This document shows positions 504 through 61,769 of a DNA stretch of 64,000 bases, piece by piece. Position 1 is the stretch's first letter. Each line of letters opens with the position of its first letter. Below the pieces are notes generated by a model. That model did not search any database, was not told the DNA's origin, and worked only from the letters and a program-made list of their open reading frames with translations. The stretch is from Ophelia neglecta (Eukaryota), in the NCBI GenBank assembly GCA_965285935.1, contig OZ260664.1, positions 12,028,001 to 12,092,000 on the forward strand. Direction: 5' to 3'. The position numbers were made by a program, and so were the translations under genes.

Positions 504-619
504 TAGACTCTCCTCAGGCATAATTCATCCCTGTCCTACGTTGACCACGAACTCGTTTGTTTTGTGTCGTGACTTGCAATATGCAATATAGAAAACTGGT
601 GATTATTTGTCAAGTGATA
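504..619 (-). repeat. Family R fragment
   Basis: TAGACTCTCC...GTCCTACGTTGACCACGAACTCGTTTGTTTTGTG is the reverse-complement homolog of 15390-15465. Confidence 0.7.
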
Positions 620-3343
620 ACTTTTTCTTTTATTATATGAAGTTTCTCATGTAGACTCCGTTTGAATAATAGACATGTTCCAGCTAATTAACTCACATTG
701 CCAATTCTTTATAAAAACAATTCATGTTTCATTTATACTCAGTCTATTGATTCACTTTTTTTAAAGCAAGCTGCTCCGCGTTGTTTATAATGTGTGCTGT
801 ATTATGGCAGTTGATAATGATTTATCTGTCCCGCAGGGCCGATCAAGGGTAAATGCTGTCAATGATTTATACACTAGGCCGGCGATTAGGGATGATGTCG
901 AGCAAAATATGTATGCTGCATTACTTTTTTTGTGTGATGAAGATTTTTGCCGCTTACGCCCACTAGCTAGTAACGTTTACGAATTAGTCGATTGTACACC
1001 ATTTTTAGTTTAAAGTAAGCTCAACACATTTTCTTAGAGGTACAAACAAACTAATACTTGTTCTTACTTGACTGTAACGTATTCTCTTTAAGGAATTTCT
1101 CAGTGCAGTGTATTTTGATAAAAATCGAATACAGCCATCAGACAAGATATTATTTCATCTACTTGAGCTTCGCAAAGCCCAATTCGGGGTTATATCAGAC
1201 CGTTATTTCCTCAGCCGAGATCTTTAAAATTGTGGTCGCAAATGCGATGACCGAACTCATTGTAGAATCACAAATACATTAATGCCGTTTTAGCGTTAAT
1301 AAAACAATTTGATTTATCATTCCATTAGTTCTATATATATTAGATCAATATCTAAAGCATGAAAATCATGCGGCCCCTAGGCAGGATCCGTGAAATACAC
1401 CCAGTTCCTGGTGATTGTTGGTGAACCTAGTACATGTGGTATGAACAGAGGTGTTCTTAATGTATGGTTTTGGAGCAGCAGCTAAAGATAGTGTTTCCAA
1501 ATGGAATTTGGCTATAGTAAACAGCACGAAGTTCCTATTCAACCAGGTAACATAACAAGAGGACGTCCGCTGCCGCTATGTCACCAGCCATTCAAGGAAA
1601 CAAATCTAGATTCTTAGAGTATAGTCATAATTACTACCCAAATATATTCAATGTAACAAAAATAAAAAACGTCTATATAATACAATACGCTAAACCAAAG
1701 AGTTATACCCTAGGTAAACTTTTCCCATTGATGCAGTTGTTGCCGAAATGGCCAAGTTTGTACATGTGGTTTTAGGTTTTGGACTTGGATTAACTTATTA
1801 CCGATTTGATGAGACCACATTAATCGGTGTTTCCATTAACCAGAATTAGGTCTAAAAACAAAAATAAAGAGCAAATCCAGCTTCCACAGAGTTCGGAGTT
1901 GATAATTAAGACCGCTTTAAAAAACCAATCACGGGAGACCAAACTCAATAGAATCAATTTAATTGCAGAACATGCAAAACTGTTAACTGTTTTACTAATA
2001 GCGCAATCTGCAGCGGGCAAATACTCCTTACTTTTCAGATATTAACAATAAAGTTTTCTCGAGATTGAACTTCTTGTAAATTCGCTAAAATCACCAAATA
2101 CGCACATATGCTACTAGCGAATATTCCCTGTATGCGATGTCCTCGCTTATAGTACGATTCAGATTGGCACAAACTTTATGAACACCAACTGTAGATACAA
2201 AGGAAATATAAATCACAATTAATAACATTGTATATATGGAACAAAATAGAATCGTATGTGGGATAGGCCAGAGAGACACTTACCAACGACATGTACTTGC
2301 GGCCACAGTGAGCTAGGTTAAATTTACCTCTTTTTTAACTTGCCACTGCACATTTGAGTGTAAATCTATATAAAATTGGATAACTCAAATCCCACCACCG
2401 TGGTGTTCTGAGAAGAATAGACTTTTTAATATCCGATGTTGTTCCTTTGTGTTTAATGAACCACATTAAAAGAAAGCACTCGAGTCGTTACATTGCCAGC
2501 TAAACACGAGATACATATTTTTTCCTTTAAATGATTGAGTTCAAATAATTTCAGCAGCAAGGCCGCGGGCGTAGCTGATGGTATTATTATTATTTTACCT
2601 GGCTTCCACAATTCAGTGGGCAGACACATGAACAAACAATAAACCCAATATAGCTTCGGAGACTTTTGTTTTACTACCACTCTACCAGCAGGTACTGTAA
2701 CACAATACCTGGGTAATTGACAACGGTGGCCCTATCCACATTATATTTGTATATTAACCAAATACATTTCAATGATTTCTTTTCGGTAAAAAAAAACCCG
2801 ACTCACTATTTTATTTAGAGCTTAACCTGATTTAAGGGCCTATTTGATACAAATATTGTATACATAAAAGCTCATCTTACGTAAGGACGCCCCCACATAA
2901 ACTGAATATCAGGGAAGTGGACTAGGTACTCTTGTAACATTTCACAAATAAAAATAATAACTCGAAAGAATAGCTCCAACAAGAAAAATAACACTGTAAC
3001 TGAAACGTAATCAAATATGTGATAATGGAACAACTGACGACAAGATACCACGGAGAATTGGCCTATACCGGACTGTTAACAAATGAAGGCGTATGTGTAC
3101 AGATTAGCAGATGGGAATTGAATCAGTGCAAAAAATAGTTATTAGCCCCCCACAGGTATAAGCGTGTTTACCACCTGCCACCAACGGCTAGTTAATGGTG
3201 TAAGCTTTCATTAGACATGTGCTCATGGAGACAATCTCATCGGGTGTCTTACAGTCATCCGGTACACTAGTCCATTGTAGGCCTTTCCAGAGTAAATATA
3301 ATCATCGCCATTCATTGATAACTGACTCAATTGTTCTTTTTAT

Positions 3344-3462
3344 CCATGAATTGTTGACTACTCCTCATTGCAAGTGATCTGCTTTTTTATATTGTCTCAT
3401 TAAGCAGCTCGTATTACCAGGTGCTTCCGTACAGATTTAATAGTCTAGTCTTGATCCATGAT
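3344..3462 (-). repeat. Family R fragment
   Basis: TGTTGACTACTCCTCATTGCAAGTGAT and CCAGGTGCTTCCGTACAGATTTAATAG match the family anchors. Confidence 0.55.
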
Positions 3463-6400
3463 TTTTCTATGAACACCGGGTATAAAATCGGGTTATTTGC
3501 CATGTTCTCGAAGCACATAGTACATGCGCATTTTGTGATGATAGCACGTGTATGACTTGTTCACCTGTGACATTTGTTACATGAAATATATAAGTTGTCT
3601 ACTTTATGACTCAATTCCCATCCATTAATGATATTATTACGTCTATACAACTTTAGATAGCAGTGCGTCACATCAGCAAAATAAACCAATAAATAGGTTG
3701 ACGTTAGTGAAGATAAACGGTGTTTAGGCGTTTGCGGAAATAACAAAAATACACCTTGGATTGCAAAGCGATAACTATTGTGTGAATGGTATGTGCGTTC
3801 CAGGTTTTCCATATGCTCCATATACAATCTTTCAGTTGTCCTGCCCAACATTGGAGTAAATCAGCGGTTTTGATTTGTGGTGTTATGGCCATCAATATTC
3901 CTCGAGCTACTTTCGAATAGGTGCCAGTGGCCGCACGTTTAAGTTTATTTCTTTGACAGAGGATTTAATTTATTTTCGAAATGACACTATAATGCACTTT
4001 TCTACAATATTTGATGATTGATAAACTATTTTATATAGATCTGAGGCAGACAGGCTTTACCCTGAAATAATCAATCAAAAGAGTAGCGACAATATGTCAT
4101 CATCGGGCGGCACCCAGGAATAAGTCGTAGTTGGAATATATATTAGTTAGTATGCGAAATATGATAAAATAAATTGTTTAAACAGTTGCGCTGTTATGAG
4201 CCAAACCAACTCCGAAATGGTAGTCAATAGCCGGCAGACCAAGCAAATATAGTAAGAACATTGGTCCGTAATCATTTTAACTGTCAGTAACATAACAATA
4301 AACACCCATCCCTAGCTACCTAAAGGTAAATAAGTTGGTATTGAAATAAATGAAAAAATTCAAATAGATCCCACTGTTTCATATGCATTTATAATAAGCT
4401 AATGAGGGTATTTGTTTCGCTCAACCTCACCCCATCCGCCAAACCCCTTTTATTCCTTCCCACATATATGCAACTAGGAATACAATTTTAAGAACAGAAA
4501 CTTTTAATGCTCAGTAATATTTTGTCTCGCTGCTCGCAATTACAATTGAAAGAATGGGTAGCGGAATGAAATACACCCCAACTGTCCTTTGCCTGATACT
4601 CATATGCTTCCACCGTGATGTTAATAACGAGTAAACAGCCAACTAGAAGTTTCCTTATAGCGAACTAATTTTTTTTTGGCCACAACGGTTATAGTTTTGC
4701 GTCGCCCTTGGAAATAATCATAATATTTGGGATATGACCCAGGACATTGGTTGGTTATGTTTCCAATGAGGTGCATCGATCTTTAAAACACAACCGAACC
4801 AGAACTGTGAATTACATTCAGTGGCATAGCAAACATAACAAATCTCATGGAAGGGGGGAGACAATTTTCACACATCAAAGTTCAAGTGAATAGCATGGAA
4901 ACTGCATAACCAGCGAAATCTTGTGTGTGGGACAAACAGGAAAGGCGGTCAACTGCAAAATGAAAATTGCTCCCCTCGCAATCTATTTATCGTTCCTGTG
5001 CGTTTTTTCGATACCCCAAAGATAAAAGTATTAACACTACAAACCTATGTATATGCCTTTATGCCTACTCGAATGCATGGCATTCGAAGAAAGTCCATGG
5101 CATGCGCTTGACCGATGAAAGGAAGCTCAAGGGTTAATACAATATCTTAACTCTATTTAACCACATGTCGCCTCTGAGGTCGCTTTCATGTTGCTTTGTT
5201 GATGGAAAATGTTGTTAATTTAGTCCGGACCAAACACTTTCCAAATCAACTGTGAATACCCAAATGCCAGTTTCGAATTATAACAAATTGTATACGCCCC
5301 TTTCCGAGGGCGGGTCCATTCATCTAGATTATGTTAGCCGCGGGAAACCATCACCTTTAGACAACCCCCTTGTGGTTATGATCATAGTCTCCGGACACTG
5401 GCCTACTGCGTTGGCAACATGGAGCATAAAGGTAGTAGCGGCAACAGTGTTAGGAAATATGTTTCAACGCTTCTGTCTTTCTTACGAACGTGCGTCTTTC
5501 AATCAAGAAGGACCGTATCGTTGGCAGTGTTCGAGTGTTAAACAATGGTTTCATTTTTATATTTTTACCTATGCCCCTGTTGTGATTTTGAATTTTTCCG
5601 CTTAGAACTCATATTGACTATGAATACAATATATTTGTATCAATACATGTATTCTCCCTTAATCGAAAGGACAGGCTTGGCTGACCAATCGTGCTCATCT
5701 TCGATTCCTAGTTCTTAAGTTGTATGAGACTAAGCGAAGGCAATACAAACTGCATGCTGTGTGGAAGTTTATTATAGAAACAGTGTGACCATACATGCTG
5801 TGTAAAAATAATTTACAAATAGTAGTTGAAAACAGGCGTTTCCCATTCATGACTTCTCTATAAAAGTTCACTATATGAAACCATTATGTTATACATGTAT
5901 ATGCACTTAATGTAGTACTATATATACAATTTATTTGCAATTTCAAATTGGTTGGTTAAGATATGTTTGACGTGCTATGCTTTACCCTTACCCCATTGTT
6001 TCTCCTTGGCAACGCCTTTATATTTTATAGATAGAAAGTTATCCACTATACCCAGCAAACATAATCAGCCGCATTCCTTAGCGAAATGAAATAACACTTC
6101 CCACAAACAGAGCTTGAAATTTCGACACGTTCTTGGTGCTGAGATAACAGCTAATGTTTTAATTTAGATTGTATGGTGCAATAAGTTGTCTTGGCAACTG
6201 GTTAATATGGTCGTAAAATGTGCCAATATCCCAGCACAGAAAGTTGTTTTCGTTACGGTGTAGCTCAGAATATGGCCAGTATTACTATAAAATATTTAAG
6301 TGATATGAGTAAGCTTATTTCATCCGAGCGAGACCATTTAACGTTGTTCATGAACGTTTTACTATAGATGTTTAGGATAATTCTCTCTTCTCCTATGGTA

Positions 6401-7002: not shown

Positions 7003-7095
7003 CTAAAAATCATTAAACAAGAAAATTCCGTTAAGCTGTTCCGAAATAATAATTGGGAACCCCCAACCACTGGCGCACATACTCCGATCCTCCCA
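7003..7095 (+). repeat. Family R fragment
   Basis: AAAATCATTAAACAAGAAAATTCCGTTAAG...GGAACCCCCAACC. Confidence 0.55.
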
Positions 7096-7967
7096 GTGAA
7101 TAAAGAATGTGGCAGCTGCCGACTGCGAATATATTTCAACATGAATGAACCAATTCAATGCCAAGGGAAATTTGCCTTTAGGCGTGGTTTGACATCTTCA
7201 GATTGTTTAGTGGTCATTTCCGATGAATGCTGAAGTATAAAAATGTGAAATTTTGCCTTCCTAATGCATTTTCCTAGTAAACCTGGGGCAAAACACCGGG
7301 ATATGACGCTTTTTATCGGATATTTCTTTCAATAAAGTAACCTTTTCATGTTTGACGCGGGAGGGCAGGACCATGCGGCCAAATAATAGTCCAGGGGTAT
7401 TACTACAAAATTGATAGCAGTGGCGTTATATCGTTTACAACTATCTAACTTGTGTTAGAATAATGCGTTCAAGGAGTTGAAATAGAGCAATGTAGCAGAA
7501 TTTGATAACTGTATTTATTATGTATTTTGTTGTATTTGAGTTGTCCCTTTCCTGTAAGGATCTCTTTTATGTAAAATGGCCAATATGGGGCAATTGGCAG
7601 AAAAGGTGGAGATAAGGTAATTTCGTCATTTCGGGCGGTATGGCTAAAGCCCTCAGACACGTGGCTTTTGGAAAATCGTTGAAAACATACGAAATAAATT
7701 AAAATCAATCAAAAGAATAAAAATGCATCAGCTACTAATGGGAGTTGAGGACCAAACCTACATTTATCCGCCTGGAAATGTGCTCTTTTTCCGTGGAAAT
7801 ACTTATTGAAGTAAAAATGAATTCATTACAGCATTCTTCTGCCACGTTGTTGAAATCATGGTAACTGTATAGAGCAATGGAATAGCATGTTTAAAGGAGA
7901 CCCATCAATGGTTCAAATTCATCATTAATGAGCAGCGACAGCACCACATGTCTCATACAATGTGATA

Positions 7968-8065
7968 AAACGGCAGTGGATACCTTATAACAAAGCAAGA
8001 TCATTAGCCAAGAATTGTCAAGTAATTTGCTCCGAAATCACCAGGAAACATCCGATGCAGGCCCA
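7968..8065 (+). repeat. Family R terminal fragment
   Basis: AAACGGCAGTGGATACC...ACAAAGCAAGATCATTAGCCAAGAAT...CGAAATCACCAGGAAAC...TGCAGGCCCA. Confidence 0.75.
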
Positions 8066-11000
8066 TTAAAATGAAACCCAAAGTTGATACTTGGTAGACA
8101 AAAATAAATCGTTAATAAATATAGTGCATTAATACGGTCAAAATTCATCAGGAGCCAGCAGCCGCAGGGCCAAAAACATATCCTCATTTCCCTAAAAGTA
8201 AATAGAATTGTAACCGAAATAATCATTAAGTTAACTGGGTGGACGGCAGCCTTTCCTCTGTAGCTCCACGTTCCACCTGCGAGATGAGTAAATAGAATAT
8301 TGCCACCTAAGGTTTGGTAATGGGTGATACTGTATCTAACCTGTGTCCGTCGTTCTTTTATTTTCCAACTCAAAGGAAATTTCTTTCAAACAAAGTATGT
8401 GTTCTCACCACACAGACCAATCCTGTTGTCAGCTCGAGAGATCAATGTTAATGTTGATAAATGACACAGAGAATTTGAACAGGATATTGGTAATAGCAGT
8501 TTTTTTTCTGGTCTATAATCCAGAGTATGATAATACATCACCCATTCTTAACTTTCATCAGATTTATTGATTAGACACGTTGTTTTGTATTCTGTCTGTT
8601 GTTGTTTCTGTTTGTTATTGATAGTCACCTAAAGGCTATAGGACAGGAAACATGATTGCAAACGGGTGGGAACACCTAGGCCCCTATTATTTGAGCCCCA
8701 TCCAGTCACGCCATGCGTAGATTTGAACAGCCTTAAATATGTGTTTGTAATATTGTTGAAAATCGTTCATTTATATTATTAGATAGGTAAATATATATTT
8801 ATATATATATTTATGTGTGTTAGCATATATGACCCGAGCCCATACTGAGTTCCCTAATTCTTAAACCACTCTTGCAGTTTGTTAAACTACTTATAAACAT
8901 TAAATAGCGAGTAATTTCAGCCCACTTCCGCACACAAGAAGGGGAGTAGTGTCCATAGCTCCAAGGATGCAATTTTATATCTATGTGATCAAAACTATCT
9001 TACTTTGATGTCAGCTCGAATGCACGTTTCCTGTCGAGTAGAAACTAGGGTCACTAATATCTGATGAATTCGTGCACGTCTCAAGTGGGTTTTTCAATCA
9101 GCCCCAGCCCTGCAGGTAGCGCCTCAGCCAGGTGTCTTCTCTTGTCTTAATGAACGCCTACTTTTAAGCAGCTGACGTAATTTGATAATAGAAACGATCA
9201 AATGAGGTAGACGTATTGTAAGTTTCAATCGCTTGCCTAGAGTTTCAAATTTGGTGTAACAAGTTAAGTTTGTTTTCATCTTGCAACAAAGCCAAGGATA
9301 TAAAGAGAACACCAATTACCACACGAGTAGCATATTGAGAAGAGAGAAAATGCTTACAGGAAAACACTGTGGTTTATTCTATTCGTTTCAGACATAATCA
9401 ATACTATCCATGATTAACAAAACTTTGTTGGCATTGCAATGGTCCAACTAGGCAATTTCGCCATACCCTGTTTCAAACTCAATTTCTATTATGGTTTGTT
9501 CGTCATTATGTTGTCAGGTTAACAACCCGGTTGTAAGATATATTCCGACAGTGCAAACTAAATCCAAATGTCGATGAGCCAAAAGCCTGTCTGTATACTC
9601 TAGGGTGTTTATTGTATACGAGGCACAAGGGCGTTAACCATCGTTAGTCTGAATGTTTGTGCCTTTTATTCCATTGCACTAGTATTATTATATTTCGTGC
9701 TGTGGGCTTATACATATTTGCTGACTGCACAAAATTTAAATCTATAAAATGACACATCATTCTATAATATTTAGAAACTATCTTACGGGAACTGATACTT
9801 GATATTCTTACCGACCATATAGTAAAAATCCATGAGAACGACAACTCTGCGGGTTTCAGATAACAGCAAATAGCTTTGTTTCTATCTCGTTTACTCAGTA
9901 TTTAGTGTGGCCTACTCGTAAATGCGATATATTGAGTAAAACACAACAAGGCAGTTAGTTTATAAATTGGAATTTAAAGACTGTTTACGACCGACCGGTG
10001 TTCCATTATTTCATAAACAAACCATTTTATTTGTTTTGAGACAATGTCTTCCTGCGTTTCATTGCTGATTATTCCAATACATCATGGTTTCTATTCCCCA
10101 AGTTTGGATAAATAGCCTAGACTTACATTGGCACTGGTCTCACTGGGTTTCTATATATCACTGTAATAGCCACGATTGTAAATCCCCAAAGTTAATGGTC
10201 TTATACATGAACCCAATAGGAAGCTTTGTTCTCATCAAACCACGCTAAACATGTTCTCGATTCATTGGCAGATTTAATCAGAGGAAACTCGCTTTAATTA
10301 CATATGCTGCCCCGTGTGGCAAGGGAAGTTCTAAAAGGGGAGTTGAACCAATGAAGATTGATACTGTTATTAAAATTATGTAATTATTAATAAGTTATAA
10401 TCAGTGCAATCAGGAGGAAATCAAGCATTCACTATTATACACAAAAGTTGAGTTTTATTAAACTGACATTAACAAAGCTGTGAATGAAAAGACCTAATAG
10501 GGATTTAGCAAATAGTGTCTTTGTTCGAAAGTGATCGTTTATGACGTCATCGAACTGATTGCCGGGCAAATCAGGCCGACATAAAAGATTATTTAACGGT
10601 GATGAAATATGACAACTGCCCCATTCCACCTTATACTCTCAATAACAAGTTATGATACTCAAGACACGGACAAATACGTATGAATAGTAGATTTATCAAT
10701 GCTTCTCTCTTAGATGAGCGTTTGCTATATTTTAGCTTCAGAATTATGTTATAGTTAATCCACAATTTTTCGTATATTAACTGACTTTTTCAGAAGAATA
10801 CCCTAAGTCCGAAGTGCTCAGGGTATTTTCGTCCTATGGAAAAGTTATTTTATACACGGAAAAGAGAAGATTTACTGACTTAAAACTTTCCCAGCATACA
10901 AGTGATTTATTTTGTCAGTCAGATGTATTTGGGCCAGCCGATATGATAAGTAGATCATGGTTATTTTGGTATACATTCTTCCAGTTCAAACCGAAGTAGG

Positions 11001-12415: not shown

Positions 12416-12914
12416 TTAACAAAAAGTCAATGCACAGCAGTTTGTCTAAAAACGACAGTCGTGATAATGGTCCATTTTGAGACTTTGAGATTTCCGTGAC
12501 ACTAAATGCCAGATTACTAGTGGGCCGAGTAAATCTGGAATATTTACGGGAAGAAAGTAATATTGTAGCAAATATATTTTCGTATGCTTATTGCAAATCT
12601 GTTAGTCCGCAGTCGAATTTTCATTTCCGATTTAAATTTAACCCACACAGATTTTTAAGCATGACGACCTTATATAGCTTAAGTATTGTTCAGCAGTTGT
12701 ATACTCTTATGGGAGCTGAAGATCCTATCTTAAGTTGGCAAAAGTGCAATTTGTGTGGCAGCAAATCTTTTAATGATATATTTACCAGATATCTACATTG
12801 CCTATTGCAAAAAAGAATCAAAATATCTTGGCTCCTCGAAAAGTGTTAATCATCAAAGGTACATTTTCGTATTCTTTTTATTTCCAGCGTTACGGTGAAA
12901 TTTTCTAGTTCCTA

Positions 12915-13356
12915 TGAAATAGTCCATCCTGATCTTTCGTTTACCACTGCTTCGTGTGTATGGTGATTTGACTCGCGTCAGGGAAACTGTTGATTTTGCC
13001 TCCATGATATCAAGGATTTTCCAGTGATATAAGTTTTTATGTTGTTTTATTTTTTCTTGTATTTGTAGTACAAGTTTATTTACATCTTGAGGGCCAGGGC
13101 TTTGTGTAAGTTGGTATGTGGCTGCTGTTTCCTGGTTATTTATGGCCGCTTTGATGGACTATTCTTAATTAACGTTTCTGCTTTGTCCACTTATGCTTTT
13201 GCAAGCGAAATCAATGTGTTGCGCAATAGCTTTATTAACAATAAGGGATTGATATTTTCTATCAGCAGCTAACGGTTTCCGATAATTTCGGAACTCATTT
13301 TATGGACTCCTCTTGATTCTTGTTTTTGATATTCCTGCCAGGTATCCGATCCCTTT
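12915..13356 (-). repeat. Family R, two adjacent fragments (about 12915-13190 and 13263-13356)
   Basis: First: TGACTCGCGTCAGGGAAACTGTTGA and TTCCTGGTTATTT...TGGACTATTCTTAATTAAC. Second: TTCCGATAATTTCG...CTGCCAGGTATCCGATCCC. Confidence 0.65.
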
Positions 13357-14321
13357 CATGCTATTGTTAAAAGCATATGACAGTTACACATGTAAGTACC
13401 AATTATATGAATGGAGGTGTTTTGTTTAGTTTTAAAATCAGCATGTTTCAATAGTCGTATCATTTTGGCTTTTTGCTTTATCTGGCAGGAGATTTCATTG
13501 ATGCGTGCAGCAACGTTTTGCTGTTATTTGATTATACTGTAATTGTGCACACTGTGAACACTTAGTACACAATGTAACCATAATTGTATTTTGGCATGCA
13601 CCAAGAGATAAACCCATTAGAGCAATTAAGATGACGATGAGCTTAAATTTTATAGTCAACATAAAAAGAGTTTTTTGTTATTATTAATTATCTCAAGGTT
13701 GATCAATTGTAGGTTGTCATGTCGATAAAAACACTACCGAAAAGTTAGATTCTGTTATCCATGTTTGTTTTAATATTCTGGCTTACATACACTGGCAAGT
13801 GGTTTTATTTAGAAAACGTATGTTCGGTCATTATGTATAATTACATAAGACGCGATCTAGTTGCCAGTGATGGGTGTGAAGGCCAAGTCAAACCAGTATT
13901 CACTTATAAGTGGTTTGGGGAACCAATTAATAATTTATGGTTTGAACTTTCACCTTATCCAAATCCATCTATGTTAAAATTCAGATACATCTAGATTGAA
14001 AACAGTATTATTGAGATACTCTTCCATTAGATGCTTCCCACTATCTTTGTTATTCAGAGGTGGTGCTTTGATATTCCCTGAACATTGATTCCTCCCTGAA
14101 ATGGTGCTCTGTCTACTGATGATTGGCGAGGGAGTTGTGATTTGTGGTCGATCAGTCACCATATTCTCTCAGTTTGCTGGTTGACCTTCATGTGGTGAAT
14201 TCACTTGGGGCTACATTCCTATTCACACAAGGTCTATCACTGAACCCCGATACATTTTTCATGCTAACAAATAATCAATCATATTGCTTTTAGGTAAAAT
14301 CAATGTTCATTTACAAGAACA

Positions 14322-47565: not shown

Positions 47566-48442
47566 AAAAATGACCACTGCCTTGTAACACGCGGTATTGC
47601 TGTCGTTCTTCCCACCCGTATTAACCGCCAACAATAGGTCACAATTACTCAAAACCTCATGTTAATACTTCCAGCTTCAGTGGTCCGCTATTCTGGCCGT
47701 GTGCAGTTCATGCGCTGACACGATCACTGGAAAAGATCAGGGTGGATACGAATATATAACTAAAATGAGGCACGCCGAAAGACAAAACAGTTATCTTTTT
47801 CCAGAAATGCTTAATAAATTACATCTTTTTCAATACCTTGTAAGATTAAGGATAACCTACTTATGAAGATAATTTAATACACTAAATATATTAGACCGGT
47901 TGAAAAATACGGCAAACAAAAGAACCATTGATCGAGAAGAGTGCATCCAGCGGTCCAAAGTCATCAGGAGCCTCCAGACACAGGACCATGTACAACACCC
48001 AGCTCCCTAACAGTAAAAACATGTAAAGCAAATAAAAGAAAGGCAAACATAAAGTTGATATGGGAAGTTTTAAACAGTTTTCCATGGTGCCAGTCAGAGC
48101 ACAGAGAAAAGAGAAAAAATGTGCAGCAGGAGAGTCACGCTTTTATGGTGCTAGAACCCGTGCATCTGCATAAAAAAGGAATTATATAAGTATGATGCCA
48201 AGGCACATGGTTCCTAGCCTTAAGATGAGCTGAGATTTGTTGTTGATCTGACACTATATTTGTCCAGAAAGCTGGGTTCTCCTTACAGGCACATTACGAT
48301 GAAGTTACATTCCTTTCCCGGGGAGGCAAATTCGCAAACATTACTCAACCTAACGGTGAACCAATGCGTTTGTTTTAGTGCTAGTGAATGTTAATTGTTA
48401 GCTGGCCAAATGAATGACGTACCATCCTCTATTGAAGTTTTT

Positions 48443-48541
48443 GAGCCTGCAGCTGGTAGTTCCTGATGACAAATACCAATTTAATTGACATTTTATTTTA
48501 TTAATTTTTGCATTTGACCGCTGGATATACACTTCCGTTTT
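48443..48541 (-). repeat. Family R terminal fragment
   Basis: GCCTGCAGCTGGTAGTTCCTGATGA...CCAATTTAATTGAC...GCTGGATATACACTTCCGTTT. Confidence 0.7.
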
Positions 48542-51500
48542 TTTAGATTGACTGTTATTTGATTATGTTTGTTCTACTAATTCACTTATTCAGACCGTTA
48601 GTTGACTAAAAACCAACGACAACCAAGCTAATACTGATCTAATGCCATACCACGTATTGAAGCAATTGTCGTAGACAAATAGTGGTGTCATGAATGTATG
48701 GCAGCATTCTTAGTGTGATTCTTTAAATACATCTTTTGCAATAGTGTCCTGTTCACCTTGAATATGGTTTTACAATCCTACATCAACTTTGTGAAAGTGG
48801 AAAGCGGCCAACCCCGAGACCCCTATTTAACGATCACAATGGACGCAGGCGATTATTCGTCTGCTGCGATGCACATAATGTTTCCCATAACTATTAATTT
48901 CTTGCCAACTAGAAAAGAAGTAATGAAATTTTGTCAGTAAGGCCAAAAAAACTGTGCTTGACATACTAAACCGAGTTAACAATTCCCTAGAGGTCAACTA
49001 AGTGTCAATATAATTAATGAAGTGCCAAACTCATCTTCCCCTCCACTCGAATAGTCTACCATGTTGCATTTTCATAGACTTGTGAAGATCCGCGAATATT
49101 GAATTAGTGGTAAACATTCACCCGTTTGTCCTTGTTGCCTCCGTCTCATCCTGTAATTGATCAATGGAAAATGGGGGAAAGGAAATCATGTTCCTCAATT
49201 CGATTTCTATTATTAAATAGCTTGATTAATTGATATTGCATGTCAATACAAAACTCTATTATCAATAGTTTAAGAGTTCCACGGTAGAGCATTCGAAGTT
49301 GCCACTATATAGCATTTGATTATACATGTAGCTCCTGCAGAGTAAAGCCGGCAAAATGGCCACATTATATCATGGCAATTCATAATGAATTCGACCCTGT
49401 GACATATTTTTCAGTTCTCAAACAATTCGCTCCGGACAACTTTACAGTCACAGAAGTATTTCAGTGTCGGAGACACGAATGAATCATCTGTTGTTCATCT
49501 CCAACTTTTGTATCGAAGATTAATCAATATAGTGTTTTCCTATTGTTTAAATAGGGCCGGTTATTATTCGGGCCTTGTTAACGTAGTCGTGATGTTCGCA
49601 CAGAACAATAATTATCCTGACCATCCCTAACAGCCATTGCCACAACGGAGACAGCTGAAAACGACAAGCAAAGTACCTTTGATGAAGAGTGGAGTGAAGA
49701 CAAAACAAGCCTTAGTCGTTTGTCCTTGGGCAAGGACATGGACGCCACCTAGGCACTATTCGACCTTTAAGACTCCTGCACCAGACAACGCCAATGGCAC
49801 ATAATAAAGTTGGTATTTCTAGATCGTTGGCCTAGCAAGAGCGCAGATTTCCGGGACATTGTCTGTAATTATCTTAGCTGTAAGAATGAGCACCCGATGT
49901 CGGGTTTTGTACAAGCGGTATTAACTCTTAACTCGATTAAAGTCAGAATGAAACTGCTAAATCTGTCTTGACTTAATAATTGGGGTTTCTGTAAGCTGGA
50001 TTCGGTCTTAAATCTGGTCATTTTGGTCTTAAAATTTATCTGTCCAATGGAAACATTGATTCACGCAGTCTCATCTAATAACCTAATATGATCACTAAAC
50101 CTACGACCTCTTCGAAAAACCGGGCCCTGCAGACTATCTATGCCAAACCTTAGTTTGGAACGTATCCTGGGTCATGCTCTGGCGTGTTCATTTGGTCCGT
50201 TTCATGAGTTTTACTTTAGAAGAATGTGTATTGAGAATATATATAGAGACGTCGCAAATATAGTGTAAAGATCCGCTAAAATAGAAACCCTGAACATATA
50301 TAGACTGGCATCTTACGATGAACTTTGATGACACAGTCCGGTCCTACCCAGGGCCGTCCACCATTCCAAATGATTTAATTTGTTTTAAAGATGTAGCAGG
50401 ACTATTATGACTTTAATGTTAAATTAGACTAAACTTGGTATGCTTATATTCTAATGATAACCCACATACATCATTTGACTCCCTTATGTATTAGAGCTGC
50501 ATTGAACAAAATGCGGCCAATCAAACGACATGCTTTCAGTTAAATACGTCATCTTCTACGAGTGCTTGGAATATTACTTGAGTACTTGGAATATCAAAGC
50601 CAATATTAATAAATAATGCAGTATAGTAAAGTATGAAAAATGATCCCATCGACCCCTATCGCCTTGTATCTGCGGTTCATTAGTAGTATCACTGCTTTAG
50701 GTAGAAGCTTCACGTGTTGTTAGAGTTACTTGTTATGCACATATGTTTAGCCCTGAGGCAAAGTGAGAAAGCAACTCGTGTATGTGGTTATTAACTATCA
50801 AAATCAATATACCTTTGCAACCATATACAAGTAAGCAGCTAATGAACGAACAAAATGTAACGGTTGCTATGTCCTTCTCATTAGCCACTTCTGGTTACTT
50901 ATTCAAATTTATTTAAATTTAACGCATGGCCTCAGGACTAGTAAAAGGCTAGCAGAATGCAACTAGCCTTATGCAAAATCTTATGTTATCAGTAAATATA
51001 TTTCTGGAGTGTTAACCTCCAAGTAAATATGCCATAGTTTTAACATGTTCGCAGTAAAAGCCGCCATGGATTTGGGTAATACCAGAAAGGGACCATAGTT
51101 TGCCTTAGGCTAATCACCTGACATATGTTATAATGTAATGTATCCTGATGGAGTCCTTAGTTCATAATACCTTGTTTCTTCCCGTCAATAAGGAGGAGAG
51201 GAAGAAGAGAGACTATAATTATGTATAAAATTTGGTCTGTCCTATATTGAGGGCCTTTTGGGTATTTGTGTCGATGTATTTTCCTCCAGCTTATGATCCC
51301 ATCTGCTTTAAATACTGACAATTGCAGTTTATTTTTATTCTGGTAGGTCATAATTCACTGTGGTTCCGTAATGGCAAGTATCTTTCGCCAAATGTTGCAC
51401 CCAGTGGGTTAGTTAGTTATCCAGAGGCAAGTTCATTTAGTAATGTAATTGTTAACGAGATTAATTTCTTGTATCTTTAAAAACATAATGCGGTTTCACT

Positions 51501-53248
51501 ATTCGTCATTCCCTTTTCAACCTCAGATCGCCCCATCCATCCTTCAAAACAATGCACCTGCTTCACTGAAACTCCACCGCCCCCCACCCCCACCCGCCCA
51601 ATCGCCCATCCCCTTTCCCTCTGGCTCTCGTTGTAGTGCATATATGCCGATGTGGAAACAAAGTTATTCGTGACCGTGTCACGGTAATATTTCACTCCTA
51701 TCCCGTTGCTACCTCATGCGAGTGTTATAGAGCCTTTTGTAAGCGCAAATATGCAGTGGTGACATATGACAGGTGACTATCCTATCACCGGGAAAGACCC
51801 GAAAGCACCAATTCCTCAGACAAGGTATTAATGTTAAAATCCTATTACTGTAAGAATACAAATATGGCGAGCGTACATATCATGTCTGGTCCGGGATTTA
51901 ACATACGACTGCGTTGGAAATAAGATTGAATCTCCGGCTGTTGGAAAAAAACCTATTTTTTATATATATAATGCTCTACCAGCGGAAGGTATGAGCATGT
52001 TAAACCGGCAGACAAACCCAACCATGAGGTCGAGAACGGTTAATTACTGTTCACCATTAAACAAATATGAGCAACTTTCACCGCTCCCTGACCAACCAGA
52101 TCAATACCTCCAAATACAAATACATAAAACAATAACGAAGGGACCATTTATTTCGCAAAATCACAAATCTAAAAACCGGGACGATACACGGGAGACTAAG
52201 CAAATTATTTAATCGAGATTGCCCATTAAATAGAAGCGAAATCATCAAGAACAGTCCCGTGCAGGCCAATAAACACAAACTTCAGCCAACAGCCCTTTCC
52301 ACCCCCACCCATGCGTTTCTTCCACACAGTGCTCATCACCAGTGTCAAGTTAGCAACATTACTTTAGATAAGTGGTTCTCCAAACGGCCGGAGTGTTATG
52401 AAACCTTTTTCTGGACTCCATTGGATATTTGTTAATTGACTCTAAAGACCCTCCGAACCTTTTCAGTTACGTCTTTTGGTTACGTCTTTATTATACACCG
52501 ACTTTCGGTTTTCACACCTTTTCAGTTGTCTGCTCCAGACCCCTCACATTTTTTGTAAAAAAAAATCTATTGTATTTTTATAGCGGTTCGTAATATAGTT
52601 CTCACTGATTGCGTTTCCCTTTTATGGACCTTATTATAAATATGACACTGGTACATTAATGTTATTCATGAAAATCGTCGATATTTGGATAGGCTTGATG
52701 TGTTGACCTCAGACTAATATTCTCTAGAATGGCAGTTTATCCATCGCCTGTATATCAAGAGACCTAGAGAGAGAATTGCTGTCTTTCTGGCAAATGTGAA
52801 AAGCTATGGCAGAAAATAGAACGTTTTTAGCTGTAATCATTTGGTCTTTTGGTGGAACAGAGAACGGTGTGTGTTGACTGTCTAAATATAGAGTGCTGCC
52901 ACCTGCCCTGACTGTGTCATGCCCGTGGGTGAAATGTTGCTCATTACGACAGCTGATCTCCCCTTTTGTAGTACCTGCTTTAACTAGTTATGGTGCCACA
53001 CAGCCAAATGTAGCCTAAAGACTAGCAAGACTAGAGAGGTCTACAAACCTGACTGCATTCCCCCATACTGATTTGAATCAGGACATCATCTTTTTCCTGT
53101 TAAGTAACGGTCATTTCTGCTCAGGCAGTCTGTAAGCACACACACGCCGTTGGCAAAAGGCTTGTACATTATATAAAGATCACTAAACTAATGTTTTCAC
53201 CCAACGCCCAATCGTTTACGCATAGTATTTAAAGAAGAAAAATACGAG

Positions 53249-53291
53249 ATTCGATACCCGGCAGAGAAAGGAACTTCTTTAAGCAAGAATG
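53249..53291 (+). repeat. Family R terminus
   Basis: GATACCCGGCAGAGAAAGGAA...CAAGAAT. Confidence 0.55.
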
Positions 53292-56200
53292 TTAGAATAT
53301 ATCTGTCAGGAATGACATTGAATCATGGATTCACATATCATGAGCCTAAAGGTTGCTAACTCTGATTCACTTGAATGGTTTTAGCAGTGTTTTGTTAAAC
53401 ACCGAGTGATTGGTTGGTCTGTCGTGTGTCCTCTCAAAACGTTCAATCGATGTTCCCTGATCTCCTATAGTTCCCCGGCTTTCTGTGTTAGACTACCATT
53501 TAATATTTCTTAGTGATCTGGCGTATAACTCCGCGATCCATCAAACAACAGTGCATTCAATGTAGCCGCGCACCTGGACTGCGCAGTCATTGGAGAACTT
53601 GTGAGCAGAAATCTTAAAAATCTATTATTATAGGCCAAGATTACTAGTTTGAGGTACCTGGATACTGAAAATTGATTGATAAAGATAAAAAAGTGGATCA
53701 TATATTGTTCTTTTTTTAAATTAGAGTATGACTTCATCTACAATGTTTTCTCAAATAAGTCCAAGGCGAAGCAAACTGCCAAAATTCAAAGTGTGAACAA
53801 AATTACAATTTGCATATTTATTACGAAAAAATGGCTAAAACCAAATTCGCCGTTAAGTCCCATAGGCTGATTATGACGTAGGTGCGTCGCAATAGAGGGG
53901 GATCTGTGTGGTAATCAATGGGAAGATCGCCCTTTTCTGTCATTTTCTCAAATAAAATGTTCTCCAACGGCAGTAACTGCGAGTTATCAGCTCCAGGTGA
54001 ACGATATGTCTTTCTCTGAAGAAACATTATCATTGGCAAATACGTCTAAGGGAAAATAATCAGAAAGAAGAGATACATTTATTGCCTGCGGAATTTACCT
54101 AAAGGTCAGAACAATGATAAAATGGCTCAATGTATTTGATAATAAGATGCTGACGTGTGCCTTTTATTCAAGACCTAATATTGTGCGAACAGTTATCGGA
54201 CTTCCCATAAAAACTATTGTTCCTAAAATATGACAAATATTAATTGGCAAAAAAATCCATCGGTCTAGCTGATATGCCAATTGAGTGTGAAATCCAACAA
54301 CCGCAGATCTGACAAGTGCCGACGGATGGAGTTTCTTCGTATACACTATGGTTTAACATGGTTTGCCGGTCAGTCTACGCTTCACGTTCCATTGTCATCG
54401 CTAAGACGGGCATCCAAACAATGCTTTTTCCAAATGTCTCATGAATAGAAGGCTCGGTAGGAAGATTAAGAGGGGAAAAGATCGGAAAAATTCAACTGTC
54501 ATGGTTGATTTCGGCGTTTTGAATAGAAAATACATGTACTTTCGGTGAGCAAAATGCATACGATATTTAATAGTAAGAGCTGTACAAATGCCATATAAAC
54601 TAGGAAGGGGGGGGGGGGGGTGTATTTAAAACTAAATGTCATACTTATGGTGCATAGCAAAGTCCAATTGTGTGTTATTATTCAATACAAGTAACTTTTA
54701 CCACATGTTAAAACTGTTTGCTCTTAACCCCTCTACAGATAACATGACTCCCCACTTTCAATGTCCTTAACAGCAAGTGTTAGACGTAAACATCAACTTG
54801 CTGGAAGTACAGTGACAGCCATTTGTTTCTGTCATAATCGAGATGACAACTAGTTATAAAATGTAGAGGTTTCATACGCAGCTTGTAAATCATAAAACTG
54901 CAGTATGTGACATTCGGTCTTTGGAGCCGACTTAAACCTGTACTTGTGCTTGTTTCACATTATTTATGGCTTCGACTGTCGTTGCTACCCATAAATCACA
55001 ATCGACCACGTTGACCTGTCACTAGTTATAGATGGTTTAGTCATTCCTTGATAAGGCATAGCTACCAAATAGTGTCATAAACCTCCTACTCATGTACGTA
55101 TGCAAATCACAGCCAAATAAAATCTGAGTAGTGCCACAAGAAATGATTATATAATAAGACTATCTTGCCTGGTATGTGGCCACTGGGACTCGGTGAATGA
55201 GGTACTTGACACCCTTGTTTCACCCTTTGTGTTTGATCTGAAGCAATAAATACGCTGCACCGTGCGAATGTCGTGTTATTTGGCATTCAGAGCCCAACCC
55301 TAATAAGCGAGCGCGAGATACCAGAACAATCTCATAACCATAAAAACAGAAGCATGTTAGAATTATCTAATATTTTGATAATATGGTGAGCTATGAATAT
55401 TGAGTGACAATGAGTGATACAGAGAATGAATAGCGAACTGGGACATCTGCGGTATTATTGATTACCCTGAATGAATATGAATTCATGCTGATCGAAAAGT
55501 GTATGTCACATATGAAAGATGCCCGTCAAGCACTTACAAAGCATTGATTGTATTTGTGAAGGCCATCGTGTGGAAATGTGAGAAATGGTACTTAGGCGGT
55601 GATCCCTTGATAATCTTTAGCCCGTTGATTGAGTGCCAGTTCAGTGTGTGCCAAACACTTTTTAGCCACAAATGCATTATGGTTCCAAACGTTTTTATCG
55701 AACAATATAGAGGAAACAGTGTAAATGATTAATGGATAATTCGTCACCGACGATTAGCTATTCTCCACTACTCGCGTACTTTATGCGCACGTGTGGGGAA
55801 ACTTGGAGCGCTACCTACCTTATAGCCTAACAAATGTCTGCTTAATTTGCTCGGATAGTCTTCGTCCACAGATCGCCAACGTATCCTAGTATCGCATGCT
55901 AGCCTGATATAAAGAGCATGGCAGCTATTTTCGTGGTGGCACGTGGTTAGTTTTAATCAGTTTTTATCCTTAGTGAACCGGTGCGGTCAGGTCGCGCGAG
56001 TGTGTTGTAGTCAAGCACTATACTCATGTTTCTTTAAGGACAGATCTGCCTGACAGAGCTACTCGATCACTCTACGACAATGCCGGCTGTTCCACTTGCA
56101 CCGAACGATCAAACAAAACAATATAAAACGACCGCAAATAGGATTAGGTGTATAAACTCTTGAAAAAAGGGACCTATCTTTTAATCTAAGTCATGTAAAT

Positions 56201-59200: not shown

Positions 59201-61675
59201 AATAATACGCCCTTTTTTCGTAAACTGGAGATATTTTTTACTTTCCGGATGTTTGCAAAGCTCTCTCATACGAGGTAGCTCAACGCAGCACCGGCAAGGG
59301 CAGGGGCGAGGGTGGCTCTTTCTTTATTTTTGGTCGTAAAGATGTTTCTTTTAACGGTAAATATATACGATTTTACTAGGCAGAATGCATGAACGTAGCT
59401 CCCATCTATAACATGATATCCGTATTACGAGTCAAAAAAGCCAGATTCTAGATAACCAATCGCTTATATTGTACACTGAAACATCAAAGCAAGTAATTGA
59501 GCCCAATATTGTCCGAAAAACTAAACCTAATCATTATTTTCTCATTCAAAGACACCTTCCGGCATGCCGAAGCTAGTCTAAATCCTTAATACTGACGTAG
59601 ATTTCGATTTAAACCTGTTTGAACGGTTTAAATAAAGATGTTATACCTTCTAAGGTTTTCTCATTCATGCAAGGGCAAAACCTGACTTTAGTGTGTTATT
59701 TAAAAGGAGTACCTATGCCAGTTATTTTTGTATCATTCTTGGTTCGGCTTGCGACTCAGCTAATTGGCTTTTATTTATATTTCAGTTGGAATACTCTATT
59801 GAAAATCGCACAGATATTTTCCGATTTCTACCAAACAAACAGCAACCCACATAGCACCCTAACAAGACGAGTGAGTACCAGTGAATTTCATGATAAGTTA
59901 GTACAGTCTTGCTCATATTTGATTTCTCATTAACGCAGCATATGAGGAATCAGGTGTAATACGCAACTAGTTCCAACTCGAGTTGTTTATTTCTGTTCTA
60001 TTCGCTTTATACATACACATCATAAACCCAGTGAACAATATTGACTATTACAAATATAGATCAATACTAGTGATCGGATATAGGTACATAGTAGTATCCG
60101 AAGATGACGATTTGTAGAATTATCTGCAGTGAAACTTACAAAAGACCAGTAAACGGCGTGAATACTGCTGTCCAACTTAATATTAATATATAGTAGCAAC
60201 CGCGCTTATTAGTTTCCTGAAAAGATTCATTTAATTACAATTTATTTAATTATTCCTTGTAATGACAAGGTTAGACTATTTGCTAGTTTAGATATCTGCC
60301 TATCATCAGTGCCTTACAATCAGGTTCTGTGATATATGAGCAGCTGCTATTGGTTTAATAGGTTTAATGTGCAGCTGAAGGCAATCGGATAAGATTAGTG
60401 TCAACATTAAAATGTATCATTTTCAGTTCGACAGCCGCCGGGAACTGTCTATTCTCGACGATATTTTATAGATTAATAGAATATTCTTCAGGAACATTTT
60501 TGCTTAGCCTGTACGGAATCCAGCCCCACGTTTTTTCAATATGTCTGAAGCAGTATTTGATATTCAATTGAACGAAAATATTGATAGATACGGGTGCCTA
60601 TTGCATACTTGACCTTGGGTACATTCCACCACCTGCCTACCTTGACCGAACATATCAATTTGTTTGGTAGGTCCACTCACATCAGAAGAAGATTTCACTA
60701 ATGATATATTTTTTCTCAATCAATTTCTATCTAACTCATTAGTAATTATAAAATCGGGAATTGATTTCTTCTAATGTCTGCGCCTGACAGTAGTGATGAT
60801 TTAGTATAAGTTTTAAATAATTATGAAGATTTTTTCCTTGGTATTGATTTCGGCTTGTCTGACAGGTTTTTTCTACTATTAACGTGTTTACATGTTATAT
60901 TCAATTCAAAGAGGATATATTTTCCATTTTCTAATTTCTTGGCGGCAAGAATTATATGTTATCCTGATATAGTTAAATAGTCACATGTTTATAGTGATTG
61001 AATTTGTCCGTCTACTGCATATAAATATATGATATCACGGAGTAGGCGCCCATGCCCCCTTTGGATTGGCGAAAGTGATCGCTCTGAATCAGCGCAGTCT
61101 TTCTATTAATGCGATGATATTAAATGAAATTTATCCGAACTAGTCTTAGAGCAAAAACGACCAAATAATACCTCATCGCGGGTATGGTGACTCCCTCTTA
61201 AGTTAATAGTCTGTGCAATTGATATCCATTTGGAGAATTCTGACTGACCCATGTCTTATATGTACCAAGGCATGTTCAGCTGCAGCTGGCCTGTGGATAT
61301 TAAATATTCAAGAAACCAATATCTATATACGTGACAAGTATTCGGGATCTAAATGTGTTTTATGCAATGCTTTTTATCACTAATATGAGTGAAGCAGGCG
61401 GTGATTCATTCAAAAACTATGGCATTAGATTTGTAAGTAATGCCAAGATGGTTTGAAAAGCAAATTCTTCCAGGTCAAATAACACCCGCCAAACCAATTT
61501 AACAACAAACCCTTTGGGTACTTGAATCCCCAATGCTTTATGTGAACCTCGCTCAATTCTATCCCGATAGATATATTAATCATGTTTTGTTCACGGAATA
61601 TCATTATTTACAATCGACTTCATGCTGAGAATAAATAGATAACATTAAGACCGGCTACCTATCTCCATCAAACAC

Positions 61676-61769
61676 AAGCGACTGGATACATGGCTTACAA
61701 AGAATAATCGTTAATCAAGAAAGGTTTATACAAATCGGTCAAAAATCATAGGAACGTCAGTGGCAAGCA
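61676..61769 (+). repeat. Family R terminal fragment
   Basis: TGGATACATGGC...ACAAAG...AATCGTTAATCAAGAA...AAATCGGTCAAAAATCATAGGAAC. Confidence 0.65.

What the first reader, a model, noticed from the sequence alone, without database searches (positions are those of the whole stretch)
504..61769. Dense, unassigned decayed repeat (family R): at least 22 copies in 64 kb with a shared sharp terminus
Seen in sequence: the same anchors recur in the same order on both strands at ~0.5, 3.4, 7.0, 8.0, 12.9, 13.3, 14.3, 15.3, 18.2, 26.8, 27.3, 29.0, 29.6, 32.0, 32.8, 34.1, 34.7, 37.8, 42.0, 48.4, 53.2 and 61.7 kb. By-eye consensus: AAACGGGAGTGGATACCYGGCAGACAAAGCAAAATCATTAATCAAGAATAGTCCATTAAATCGGTTCGAAATCACCAGGAACCACCAGCTGCAGGCCCAC ... 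GAAGTAGTCAACAGTTTT-ATGATGCGAGTCAGAGCAYAAAACAAACGAGT-GTGGTCAACCTAGGACAGAGATGAAATATGTCC. Most copies keep the GGGAGTGGATAC end, and sequence beyond it is unrelated between copies, while the other end is ragged. I see no TIR, TSD, poly-A or microsatellite tail. Inference: one-sided truncation suggests a retroposed or rolling-circle element, or a local expansion, that I cannot assign to a named family.
Basis: partly seen in the sequence, partly recalled or inferred. Interest (0 to 1): 0.75.

Follow-up and report, generated by a model that had tools for sequence, protein, structure and literature searches.

The report
Ancient one-ended Penelope-like repeat family
About 30 old, broken copies of one 540-base mobile element fill up to 8% of this animal-like DNA stretch and nearly all keep the same end; it looks like a non-coding leftover of a Penelope-type retrotransposon, which would make it a fossil clue to how those poorly understood elements copy themselves.

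Summary
The family is real. 28 of 32 candidate pieces score E<0.01 against models that never saw them; the best hit in 20 shuffled windows is 6.7 bits. 26 of 35 pieces start within 13 nt of one end, against 25 of 232 simulated two-sided fragments. Copies are about 74% like the consensus, form a star tree, lie on both strands in unrelated flanks, and show no codon constraint: one old dispersed burst from a non-coding master, not a local duplication. Pooled over copies, the master carries, in order, motifs of the thumb, linker and first half of the GIY-YIG nuclease of Neptune-type Penelope-like elements (0 of 300 and 0 of 200 controls reach the score). That signal rests on a few anchors, and every protein database search was blank. 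Best reading: a non-autonomous Penelope-like derivative whose fixed end, unusually, is at the 5' side of the old reading frame. No Helentron, SINE-promoter or hammerhead marks were found. Dfam, Repbase and genome-wide density stayed unchecked.

The parts
28965..29504 (+). Only full-length copy (consensus 2-542): terminus, thumb/linker-like part, middle part, nuclease-like end
   Evidence: held-out 103 bits over 6-283; end part held-out 33.6 bits
29611..29959 (+). Copy, consensus 52-412, about 100 nt behind the full copy; has the K-C-P-Y-I stretch in frame
18158..18428 (-). Copy, consensus 5-276
   Evidence: (123 bits held out)
34685..34948 (-). Copy, consensus 1-261
   Evidence: (85 bits)
12910..13356 (-). 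Head-to-tail pair: consensus 5-185 (13356-13200) followed by 23-281 (13190-12910)
   Evidence: (34 and 76 bits)
7967..8226 (+). Head-to-tail pair: consensus 3-115, then 11-158; a weak third piece lies at 7879-7949 (E=0.035)
   Evidence: (40 and 73 bits)
47910..48230 (+). Copy with internal deletion: consensus 21-230 joined to 427-535
26663..26856 (-). Left arm of a head-to-head junction: consensus 4-192, fixed terminus facing the junction
   Evidence: (49 bits)
26872..26935 (+). Right arm of that junction: consensus 473-537
   Evidence: (16.9 bits held out, E=1.6e-4)
60613..60866 (-). Weak, heavily decayed copy (consensus 19-280), left arm of a second head-to-head junction
   Evidence: 6.7 bits, E=0.031; not in the training set
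60971..61075 (+). Right arm of the second junction: consensus 427-540
   Evidence: E=0.06 from the single full copy; 9.5 bits held out, E=0.014
15275..15464 (+). Copy lacking the fixed end, consensus 101-292
   Evidence: (90 bits)
498..600 (-). Copy lacking the fixed end, consensus about 199-294; another repeat lies next to it at 305-482
   Evidence: (71 bits)
3213..3497 (-). Copy with internal gap: consensus 2-95, then 157-346
   Evidence: (28 bits)
4216..4376 (+).
   Evidence: (45 bits)
7006..7105 (+). Copy, consensus 34-139
   Evidence: (25 bits)
14320..14460 (+). Copy, consensus 2-126, followed at about 14441 by what looks by eye like a second terminal stub
   Evidence: (46 bits); stub read
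18901..19047 (-).
   Evidence: (53 bits)
27262..27326 (-). Copy, consensus 11-78, ending where a SINE-like element begins
   Evidence: (20 bits)
27792..27929 (-). Copy, consensus 7-151
   Evidence: (15 bits)
32020..32124 (-). Copy, consensus 9-123
   Evidence: (52 bits)
32847..32867 (+). Terminal stub only, consensus 3-23; not significant on its own
   Evidence: (E=0.65)
34095..34139 (-). Short copy, consensus 4-48
   Evidence: (E=8.6e-4)
37726..37878 (-). Copy with internal gap: consensus 3-90, then a weak piece 256-301
   Evidence: (25 bits)
41954..42007 (+). Short copy, consensus 12-64 (borderline)
   Evidence: (E=0.016)
48431..48542 (-). Copy, consensus 2-113
   Evidence: (25 bits)
52174..52285 (+).
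   Evidence: (32 bits)
53240..53324 (+). Copy, consensus 2-86
   Evidence: (21 bits)
60437..60528 (-). Copy, consensus 7-99
   Evidence: (E=0.002)
61673..61861 (+). Copy, consensus 3-191
   Evidence: (59 bits)
23330..23386 (-). Short copy, consensus 12-67
   Evidence: (E=0.005)
21128..21189 (-). Short copy, consensus 11-73 (borderline)
   Evidence: (E=0.012)
23877..23932 (+). Short copy, consensus 9-64 (borderline)
   Evidence: (E=0.048)

Best explanation
An ancient, non-autonomous retroposed family whose single master was a ~540-nt, already frameshifted internal piece of a Neptune-type Penelope-like element (PLE): end of the RT thumb, linker with zinc-knuckle remnant, first half of the GIY-YIG nuclease. 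Shown here: one master, one old burst, independent dispersed insertions, neutral decay, one fixed end with length falling off from it. Inferred: the PLE ancestry (motif test only) and mobilisation in trans by a PLE reverse transcriptase and nuclease. For the polarity I commit to target-primed reverse transcription of an RNA antisense to the old reading frame. Its 3' end is the fixed terminus (ending in a U-run), synthesis stops early at random points, and re-priming on a second RNA's 3' end gives the head-to-tail pairs. I put that sub-step at about even odds given the PLE origin.
For: Star tree, no subfamily signal (p=0.95 and 0.64), mean pair identity 0.58, 18 plus and 17 minus pieces. Mismatch by codon position 0.26/0.23/0.27, so no coding constraint after insertion. 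Unrelated flanks. Coverage per 20 nt falls 28, 28, 22, 20, 17, 14, 11, 10, 8 from the fixed end. An 11-motif chain read off the Neptune (and, for the nuclease, also Naiad) rows of Craig et al. Figs S2 and S7 scores 14.0 on the pooled copies against -8.4 +/- 3.9 (0 of 300 column shuffles; reverse strand -11.3), while a Hydra-clade chain gives 26 of 300 (7 of 300 with the element's own base composition). With motif positions permuted 0 of 300 and with 6-column block shuffles 0 of 200 reach it. In the full copy the G-Y-P part, the knuckle remnant and the stretch before Y-I-G share one frame over about 160 codons. Head-to-head junctions and partial tandems match PLE insertion structures (PMC8557442 passages). 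An antisense template has been argued for PLEs (PMC3846280 Discussion).
Against: No database support: Pfam blank or spurious; three word-index protein searches blank at E<=10; the scan of 1.84 billion proteins gave one hit, a bacterial repeat protein; PDB no hit below E=0.08. The motif signal leans on anchors: without the two terminal motifs 3 of 300 and 10 of 200 controls reach it; without those and Y-I-G, 48 of 300 and 54 of 200. Gap ranges were set after I had seen the consensus. Blind scans of single copies do not put the family first: nuclease-only chain not significant; with all 11 motifs three copies rank 8th, 9th and 11th among the window's sites. Several motifs match poorly, most cysteines are lost, and many small indels must be assumed. 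No hammerhead core. Ordinary PLE copies are cut at the 5' side, the opposite of this pattern. The two inverted junctions fit a sense template more simply.
Confidence: 0.62

Rival explanations
1. Same PLE-derived master, but copied from a sense RNA with a fixed 5' end (start site or cleavage site). Reverse transcription starts at variable internal points and runs to the 5' end, as in tailless retropseudogenes or twin priming. This rival shares the PLE origin with the best explanation; the confidence is for PLE origin plus this polarity and is carved out of the 0.62.
For: In both head-to-head junctions (26856/26872 and 60866/60971) the fixed end faces the junction, and position 537-540 and the ragged end face the flanks; one sense RNA primed from both DNA strands gives exactly that. 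A purified PLE starts reverse transcription inside its RNA and extends both strands (PMC11167929 parts 1-2).
Against: Only two junctions, one weak (E=0.031). Uniform internal priming predicts a roughly linear fall in coverage, but coverage halves within about 140 nt. No promoter box at the fixed end.
Confidence: 0.25
2. An old SINE or LINE-tail family with no PLE ancestry; the peptide motifs are chance. The strand opposite to the first reader's consensus is the transcript, ending in a hairpin and a T-run like a polymerase III terminator.
For: One-sided truncation is the normal mark of target-primed retroposition; T-run at that end; all protein searches blank.
Against: No A box, and no A/B pair, on either strand of the consensus; no tRNA or Rfam hit; motif chain above all controls.
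Confidence: 0.2
3. A non-autonomous rolling-circle element (Helentron/HINE or Helitron type) that starts at the fixed end and stops early; it may have captured a PLE fragment.
For: Fixed end with a 4-bp stem and a T-run on the opposite strand; head-to-tail pairs; no TSD. Helentrons carry T strings and a 3' stem-loop (PMC4067079 passages).
Against: No subterminal inverted repeat: best inverted matches of the first and last 40 nt score 7 and 9 against 95% shuffle levels of 9 and 10. Terminal folds z = -1.85 to +1.5 in 6 of 6 copies. The terminus itself is the K-K-R/G-Y-P motif, which leaves no room for a dedicated end.
Confidence: 0.1
4. Local expansion by segmental or tandem duplication in this window.
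For: High density (up to 8.4% of the window) and a few tandem pairs.
Against: Unrelated flanks, mixed strands, star tree, no link between identity and distance.
Confidence: 0.03

Closest known systems
Neptune clade of Penelope-like elements (Neptune1_Ap, Neptune1_Ac, DreriNep1 rows in Craig et al. 2021, PMC8557442, Figs S2 and S7)
   Same: Order and rough spacing of thumb G-Y-P motif, linker, C-x-x-C-P knuckle remnant, Y-I-G and R-x-x-x-H on one strand; head-to-head inverted junctions and partial tandems.
   Different: Only ~540 nt of an internal segment; no RT core; nuclease cut off after its first half; master already frameshifted; copies share the 5' side and are ragged at the 3' side, the opposite of the usual 5' truncation.
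Non-autonomous PLE derivatives: non-LTR retrozymes (bioRxiv 10.64898/2026.07.22.740005, part 1 of 5 read) and non-autonomous Chlamys such as MRC1 (PMC8557442 passage)
   Same: Short, non-coding, PLE-derived, high copy, some tandem copies.
   Different: Those derive from the pLTR or 3' end, and retrozymes carry a hammerhead in tandem arrays. This family has no hammerhead and maps to the thumb-to-nuclease coding segment.
Tailless retropseudogenes (PMC5322556, search listing only; their features are recalled)
   Same: Fixed 5' end, ragged 3' end, no tail.
   Different: Recalled as LINE-1 products of abundant small RNAs in mammals; no small-RNA source is found here.
Helentron-derived HINE / DINE-1 elements (PMC4067079 passages)
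   Same: Very high copy number, non-coding, T-run and small stem at one end.
   Different: No subTIR pair, no microsatellite or central tandem repeat, terminal stem not above shuffles.

Membership tests
Penelope-like element, Neptune type (as ancestor) | Telomerase-like RT core | tested here: not met
   The unit begins at the end of the thumb; upstream flanks are unrelated; no RT Pfam hit in the 100 longest of 176 stop-free stretches. Expected for a non-autonomous piece.
Penelope-like element, Neptune type (as ancestor) | Thumb and linker motifs in order | tested here: met
   Pooled chain: 1 of 300 shuffles reaches the score under both backgrounds; depends on the terminal motifs; no database hit confirms it.
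Penelope-like element, Neptune type (as ancestor) | CX2-5CxxC linker knuckle and GIY-YIG nuclease with CCHH motif | tested here: inconclusive
   Nuclease chain 16 of 300 (window background) and 1 of 300 (element background); 22 of 400; single copies not significant; most cysteines are decayed and the second half of the domain is absent.
Penelope-like element, Neptune type (as ancestor) | Partial tandems and an adjacent inverted 5'-truncated copy | tested here: met
   Two clear head-to-tail pairs and two head-to-head junctions, one of them weak; feature from PMC8557442.
Penelope-like element, Neptune type (as ancestor) | Hammerhead ribozyme in the pLTR | tested here: not met
   No Rfam hit at gathering score; one CTGATGA on the antisense strand with no GAAAY partner on that strand.
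Penelope-like element, Neptune type (as ancestor) | Copies truncated at the 5' side | tested here: not met
   26 of 35 pieces keep the 5' side of the reading frame.
Penelope-like element, Neptune type (as ancestor) | Placement in an RT or nuclease phylogeny, or match to a Repbase/Dfam PLE entry | not testable with these tools
   No PLE protein could be obtained; no repeat library is available.
Helentron / HINE | 11-15 bp subterminal inverted repeats | tested here: not met
   inverted matches of both terminal 40-mers within shuffle range; feature from PMC4067079
Helentron / HINE | Short palindrome near the 3' end with T string | tested here: inconclusive
   A 4-bp stem and T-run are present in the consensus, but folds of 6 copies are within shuffle range.
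Helentron / HINE | Insertion into TT without duplication, shown by empty sites | not testable with these tools
   No genome or second allele available.
tRNA-derived SINE | tRNA-like head with A and B boxes | tested here: not met
   (box patterns recalled)
tRNA-derived SINE | Known conserved core domain (CORE, V, Deu, Meta; names recalled) | tested here: inconclusive
   Five 12-nt motifs of this family and one control motif from the window's SINE-like element were all absent from the 8 readable supplements of PMC11481361; its FASTA library could not be read.
tRNA-derived SINE | A-rich or microsatellite 3' tail and TSD | tested here: not met
   No tandem repeat at any copy; no TSD signal, with low power at this divergence.

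The most novel reading that the evidence does not exclude
A very abundant, ancient non-autonomous family built not from a pLTR but from the internal thumb-to-nuclease segment of a Neptune-type PLE, without a hammerhead, and copied from an antisense RNA. If the density here holds genome-wide, many thousands of copies would give a fossil record able to decide whether PLEs reverse-transcribe antisense or internally primed templates, a question left open in PMC3846280 and PMC11167929.
Probability: 0.3. Interest if true: 0.68.

Novelty: new variant of a known kind. Interest (0 to 1): 0.42.

Why it matters
Unclassified old repeats are common in invertebrate genomes, so the family alone is ordinary. 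What raises it is the combination of probable PLE ancestry and reversed truncation polarity. How PLEs prime reverse transcription, and on which strand, is unsettled: one paper argues for antisense templates (PMC3846280) and one shows internal initiation in vitro (PMC11167929). A single-master family with a fixed end, tandem pairs and inverted junctions lets those models be tested by counting junction types across a genome. It would also move a sizeable share of 'unknown' repeat DNA into a named class. Five literature searches on non-autonomous or solo PLE pieces and PLE motifs listed no such family, but most hits were seen as listings only and repeat libraries were not searchable, so it may already have a Dfam or Repbase name.

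Tried and rejected
Rfam at gathering score and ARAGORN: 0 hits. Pfam on three frames of the full copy: 0 families; on the 15 rows of alignment A3: three single-row hits below cut-off; on the 100 longest of 176 stop-free stretches of the window: five hits at E 0.005-0.008, all below cut-off, so no gene was found. Word-index protein searches with alignments A2, A1 and A3, longer proteins only: none at E<=10. Full HMMER scan with A3: one hit, a 4071-aa Halomonas repeat protein with no single significant stretch, rejected as spurious. PDB sequence search: best E 0.08-0.22, rejected. A 20-nt pattern in prokaryotic genomes: 2 loci, neither matches the family model. The idea that the nuclease-like end part is an upstream extension of the fixed end was rejected: 1 of 26 upstream flanks matches it. 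The idea that copies ending near position 290 run on into that end part was rejected: 0 of 6 flanks tested. Hydra-clade PLE ancestry scores far lower than Neptune. No CpG excess in the decay (0.31 against 0.28). A weak inverted likeness between positions ~250-290 and ~400-435 (score 11 against a 95% level of 10) was left as probable chance. The language-model atlas gave no result, so that comparison is open. The viral and metagenome collections stayed unchecked.
Full report
Setting. The window is 38% G+C with CpG at 0.79 of expectation. Its longest stop-free stretch is 152 codons. It has no tRNA or Rfam hit and no Pfam hit above cut-off in the 100 longest of 176 stop-free stretches. It reads as intergenic or intronic DNA of a eukaryote. 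A mollusc-like host is my guess from a recalled likeness of the SINE-like element at about 26960-27259; no call tests that.

Is the family real? Plain self-BLAST sees only a few pairs, but iterated nhmmer from one window copy recovers it. Because iterated models score their own members, I tested 32 pieces held out: 20 by leave-one-out and 12 never in training. 28 of 32 score E<0.01 and 31 of 32 score E<0.05; the best hit in 20 shuffled windows is 6.7 bits. The final model used 35 pieces whose ranges sum to 5,391 nt, at most 8.4% of the window since the ranges carry some padding; 18 are on plus and 17 on minus.

Anatomy. The unit is about 540 nt. A middle part (290-423) is seen in the copies at 28965 and 29611 (pair score 40, reached by 1.4% of random pairs) and weakly at 3213-3397. 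An end part (424-542) occurs four times, and each of the four scores when held out (33.6, 26.2, 16.9 and 9.5 bits). All four are tied to the family: two follow the first part on the same strand, and two sit inverted next to a fixed terminus. All four stop at 535-542, so the element has a second defined end.

Polarity. 26 of 35 pieces start at position 13 or less. Simulated fragments of the same lengths, placed at random along the core and decayed alike, do so in 25 of 232 detected cases. Coverage falls from 28 to 14 within about 140 nt and to 5 by 280 nt. The terminus fades through a run of about seven A (A share 0.76 to 0.45). Beyond it, 325 flank pairs score like random pairs, apart from one overlapping tandem pair. 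In the head-to-tail pairs at 7967/8082 and 13356/13190 the upstream copy is cut short and the downstream copy restarts at or near the terminus. At 26856/26872 and, weakly, 60866/60971 a copy's terminus faces a forward piece that runs to position 537-540.

History. Copies average 74% identity to the consensus (training copies helped build it) and 58% to each other (190 pairs among 20 copies). The tree is a star: 0 of 17 inner branches are supported, shared non-consensus bases are not in excess, and identity is unrelated to distance. Mismatch rates do not differ by codon position, and CpG sites decay little faster than other C and G. So one master spread in one old burst and the copies then decayed without constraint. 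This rules out local duplication as the source.

Ancestry. Translating the consensus gave a lead from memory: G-Y-P at the terminus, a C-x-x-C-P-Y-I remnant in the middle part, and Y-I-G followed by R-M-S near the far end, as in Penelope-like elements. Database tests all failed: Pfam, three word-index searches, the scan of 1.84 billion representatives, whose only hit was a bacterial repeat protein, and PDB. These had low power, since the queries were short, 27% decayed and partly out of frame, but they give no support. I then read residue patterns off published alignments (PMC8557442 supplement, Figs S2 and S7) and scored them as an ordered chain on base likelihoods pooled over copies, allowing frameshifts between motifs. 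The 11-motif Neptune chain scores 14.0 against -8.4 +/- 3.9 (0 of 300 column shuffles) and -11.3 on the reverse strand. The thumb/linker part alone gives 1 of 300; the nuclease part gives 16 of 300 or 1 of 300 depending on background; a Hydra-clade chain gives 26 or 7 of 300. With the element's own base composition the chain scores 11.5, reached by 0 of 300 motif permutations and 0 of 200 block shuffles. An earlier run with five recalled linker patterns gave 2 of 400.

Limits of that test. Dropping the two terminal motifs leaves 3 of 300 and 10 of 200; dropping Y-I-G as well leaves 48 of 300 and 54 of 200. Gap ranges were chosen with the consensus in view, including room for a 4-nt insertion between K-K-R and G-Y-P. 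On single copies a blind nuclease-only scan was not significant. The 11-motif scan put three copies at ranks 8, 9 and 11 in the window and 9 of 22 termini in the top 5%, but copies share one master and are not independent. I therefore hold PLE ancestry at about 0.6, as 'derived from', not as membership of an intact clade: there is no RT core, no hammerhead, and the truncation side is reversed.

Other classes. Helentron-type elements need subterminal inverted repeats and a 3' stem-loop (PMC4067079 passages). No such repeat stands above shuffles, and the terminal stem folds no better than shuffles in 6 of 6 copies. A tRNA SINE needs A and B boxes; no pair was found on either strand. No TSD signal was found, with little power at this age.

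Mechanism. A fixed end with steeply falling length is what target-primed reverse transcription leaves when it starts at the RNA's 3' end and stops early (established for non-LTR elements; recalled). That would make the template antisense to the old reading frame, ending in a U-run. Arkhipova et al. argue for antisense templates in PLEs from head-to-head junctions and intron retention, and leave it open (PMC3846280 Discussion). The alternative is a sense RNA with a fixed 5' end and internal starts. A purified Poseidon element does start internally and extends both strands (PMC11167929), and the two inverted junctions here fit that geometry more simply, since positions 540 and the ragged end face the host DNA. 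Two junctions, one weak, do not outweigh the length distribution, so I favour the antisense model only narrowly. Either way the enzyme must have come in trans; that step is inferred.

What I read. PMC8557442: passages, and supplement parts 1, 4, 8, 54 and 58 of 59 plus two searches. PMC11167929: parts 1-2 of 4, and a supplement search with no hit. PMC3846280: passages and the Discussion. PMC4067079: passages. bioRxiv 10.64898/2026.07.22.740005: part 1 of 5; its supplements are closed. PMC11481361: listing and supplement search only. PMC5322556: listing only.

Verdict. The family is most likely a non-autonomous Penelope-like derivative with unusual polarity: a new variant of a known kind, pending a Dfam/Repbase check that could make it already known. 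Interest 0.42.

Noticed in passing
window 26960-27259 (+); 3' part again at 38305-38359: A less decayed SINE-like element ending in (CAA)n sits between two family pieces. From recall it resembles mollusc SINEs with a conserved core; no call confirms this. It would be the best host clue in the window.
   Followed up: partly
window 39738-40750: A decayed minisatellite with a 50-nt unit, about 12 copies by Tandem Repeats Finder over 40118-40701 and about 1 kb by self-BLAST.
   Followed up: no
window 305-482, 27390-27548, 33575-33751, weakly 37481-37680: A second dispersed family of about 180 nt with internal GACCACC-type repeats, 75-79% alike; two copies lie right beside family R pieces.
   Followed up: no
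window 21738-21998, 44749-45010, 45129-45397: A ~265-nt family; the copy at 21735-22000 looks by eye to have long terminal inverted repeats, so MITE-like.
   Followed up: no
window 11915-12203 and 47089-47382; 19287-19405 and 53892-54020; 14900-15052 and 48819-48970; 7277-7331 and 44641-44695: Four further two-copy repeat families at 71-82% identity.
   Followed up: no
window 28965-29504 and 26663-26856: These two copies share an 8-nt insertion near consensus position 120 and pair weakly in the tree (83/63); both are linked to the end part, so they may be a longer, older form.
   Followed up: partly
window 15430-15461, 500-530, 29815-29850: Near consensus 255-285 there is an imperfect inverted repeat of about 9 bp around an 11-nt loop, and four copies end within about 20 nt of position 290; a minor second truncation point is possible.
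   Followed up: partly
window 47910-48230, 3213-3497, 37726-37878: Internal deletions inside copies; the one at 48.1 kb removes about 195 nt. Such deletions could be RT skips or later repair events.
   Followed up: no
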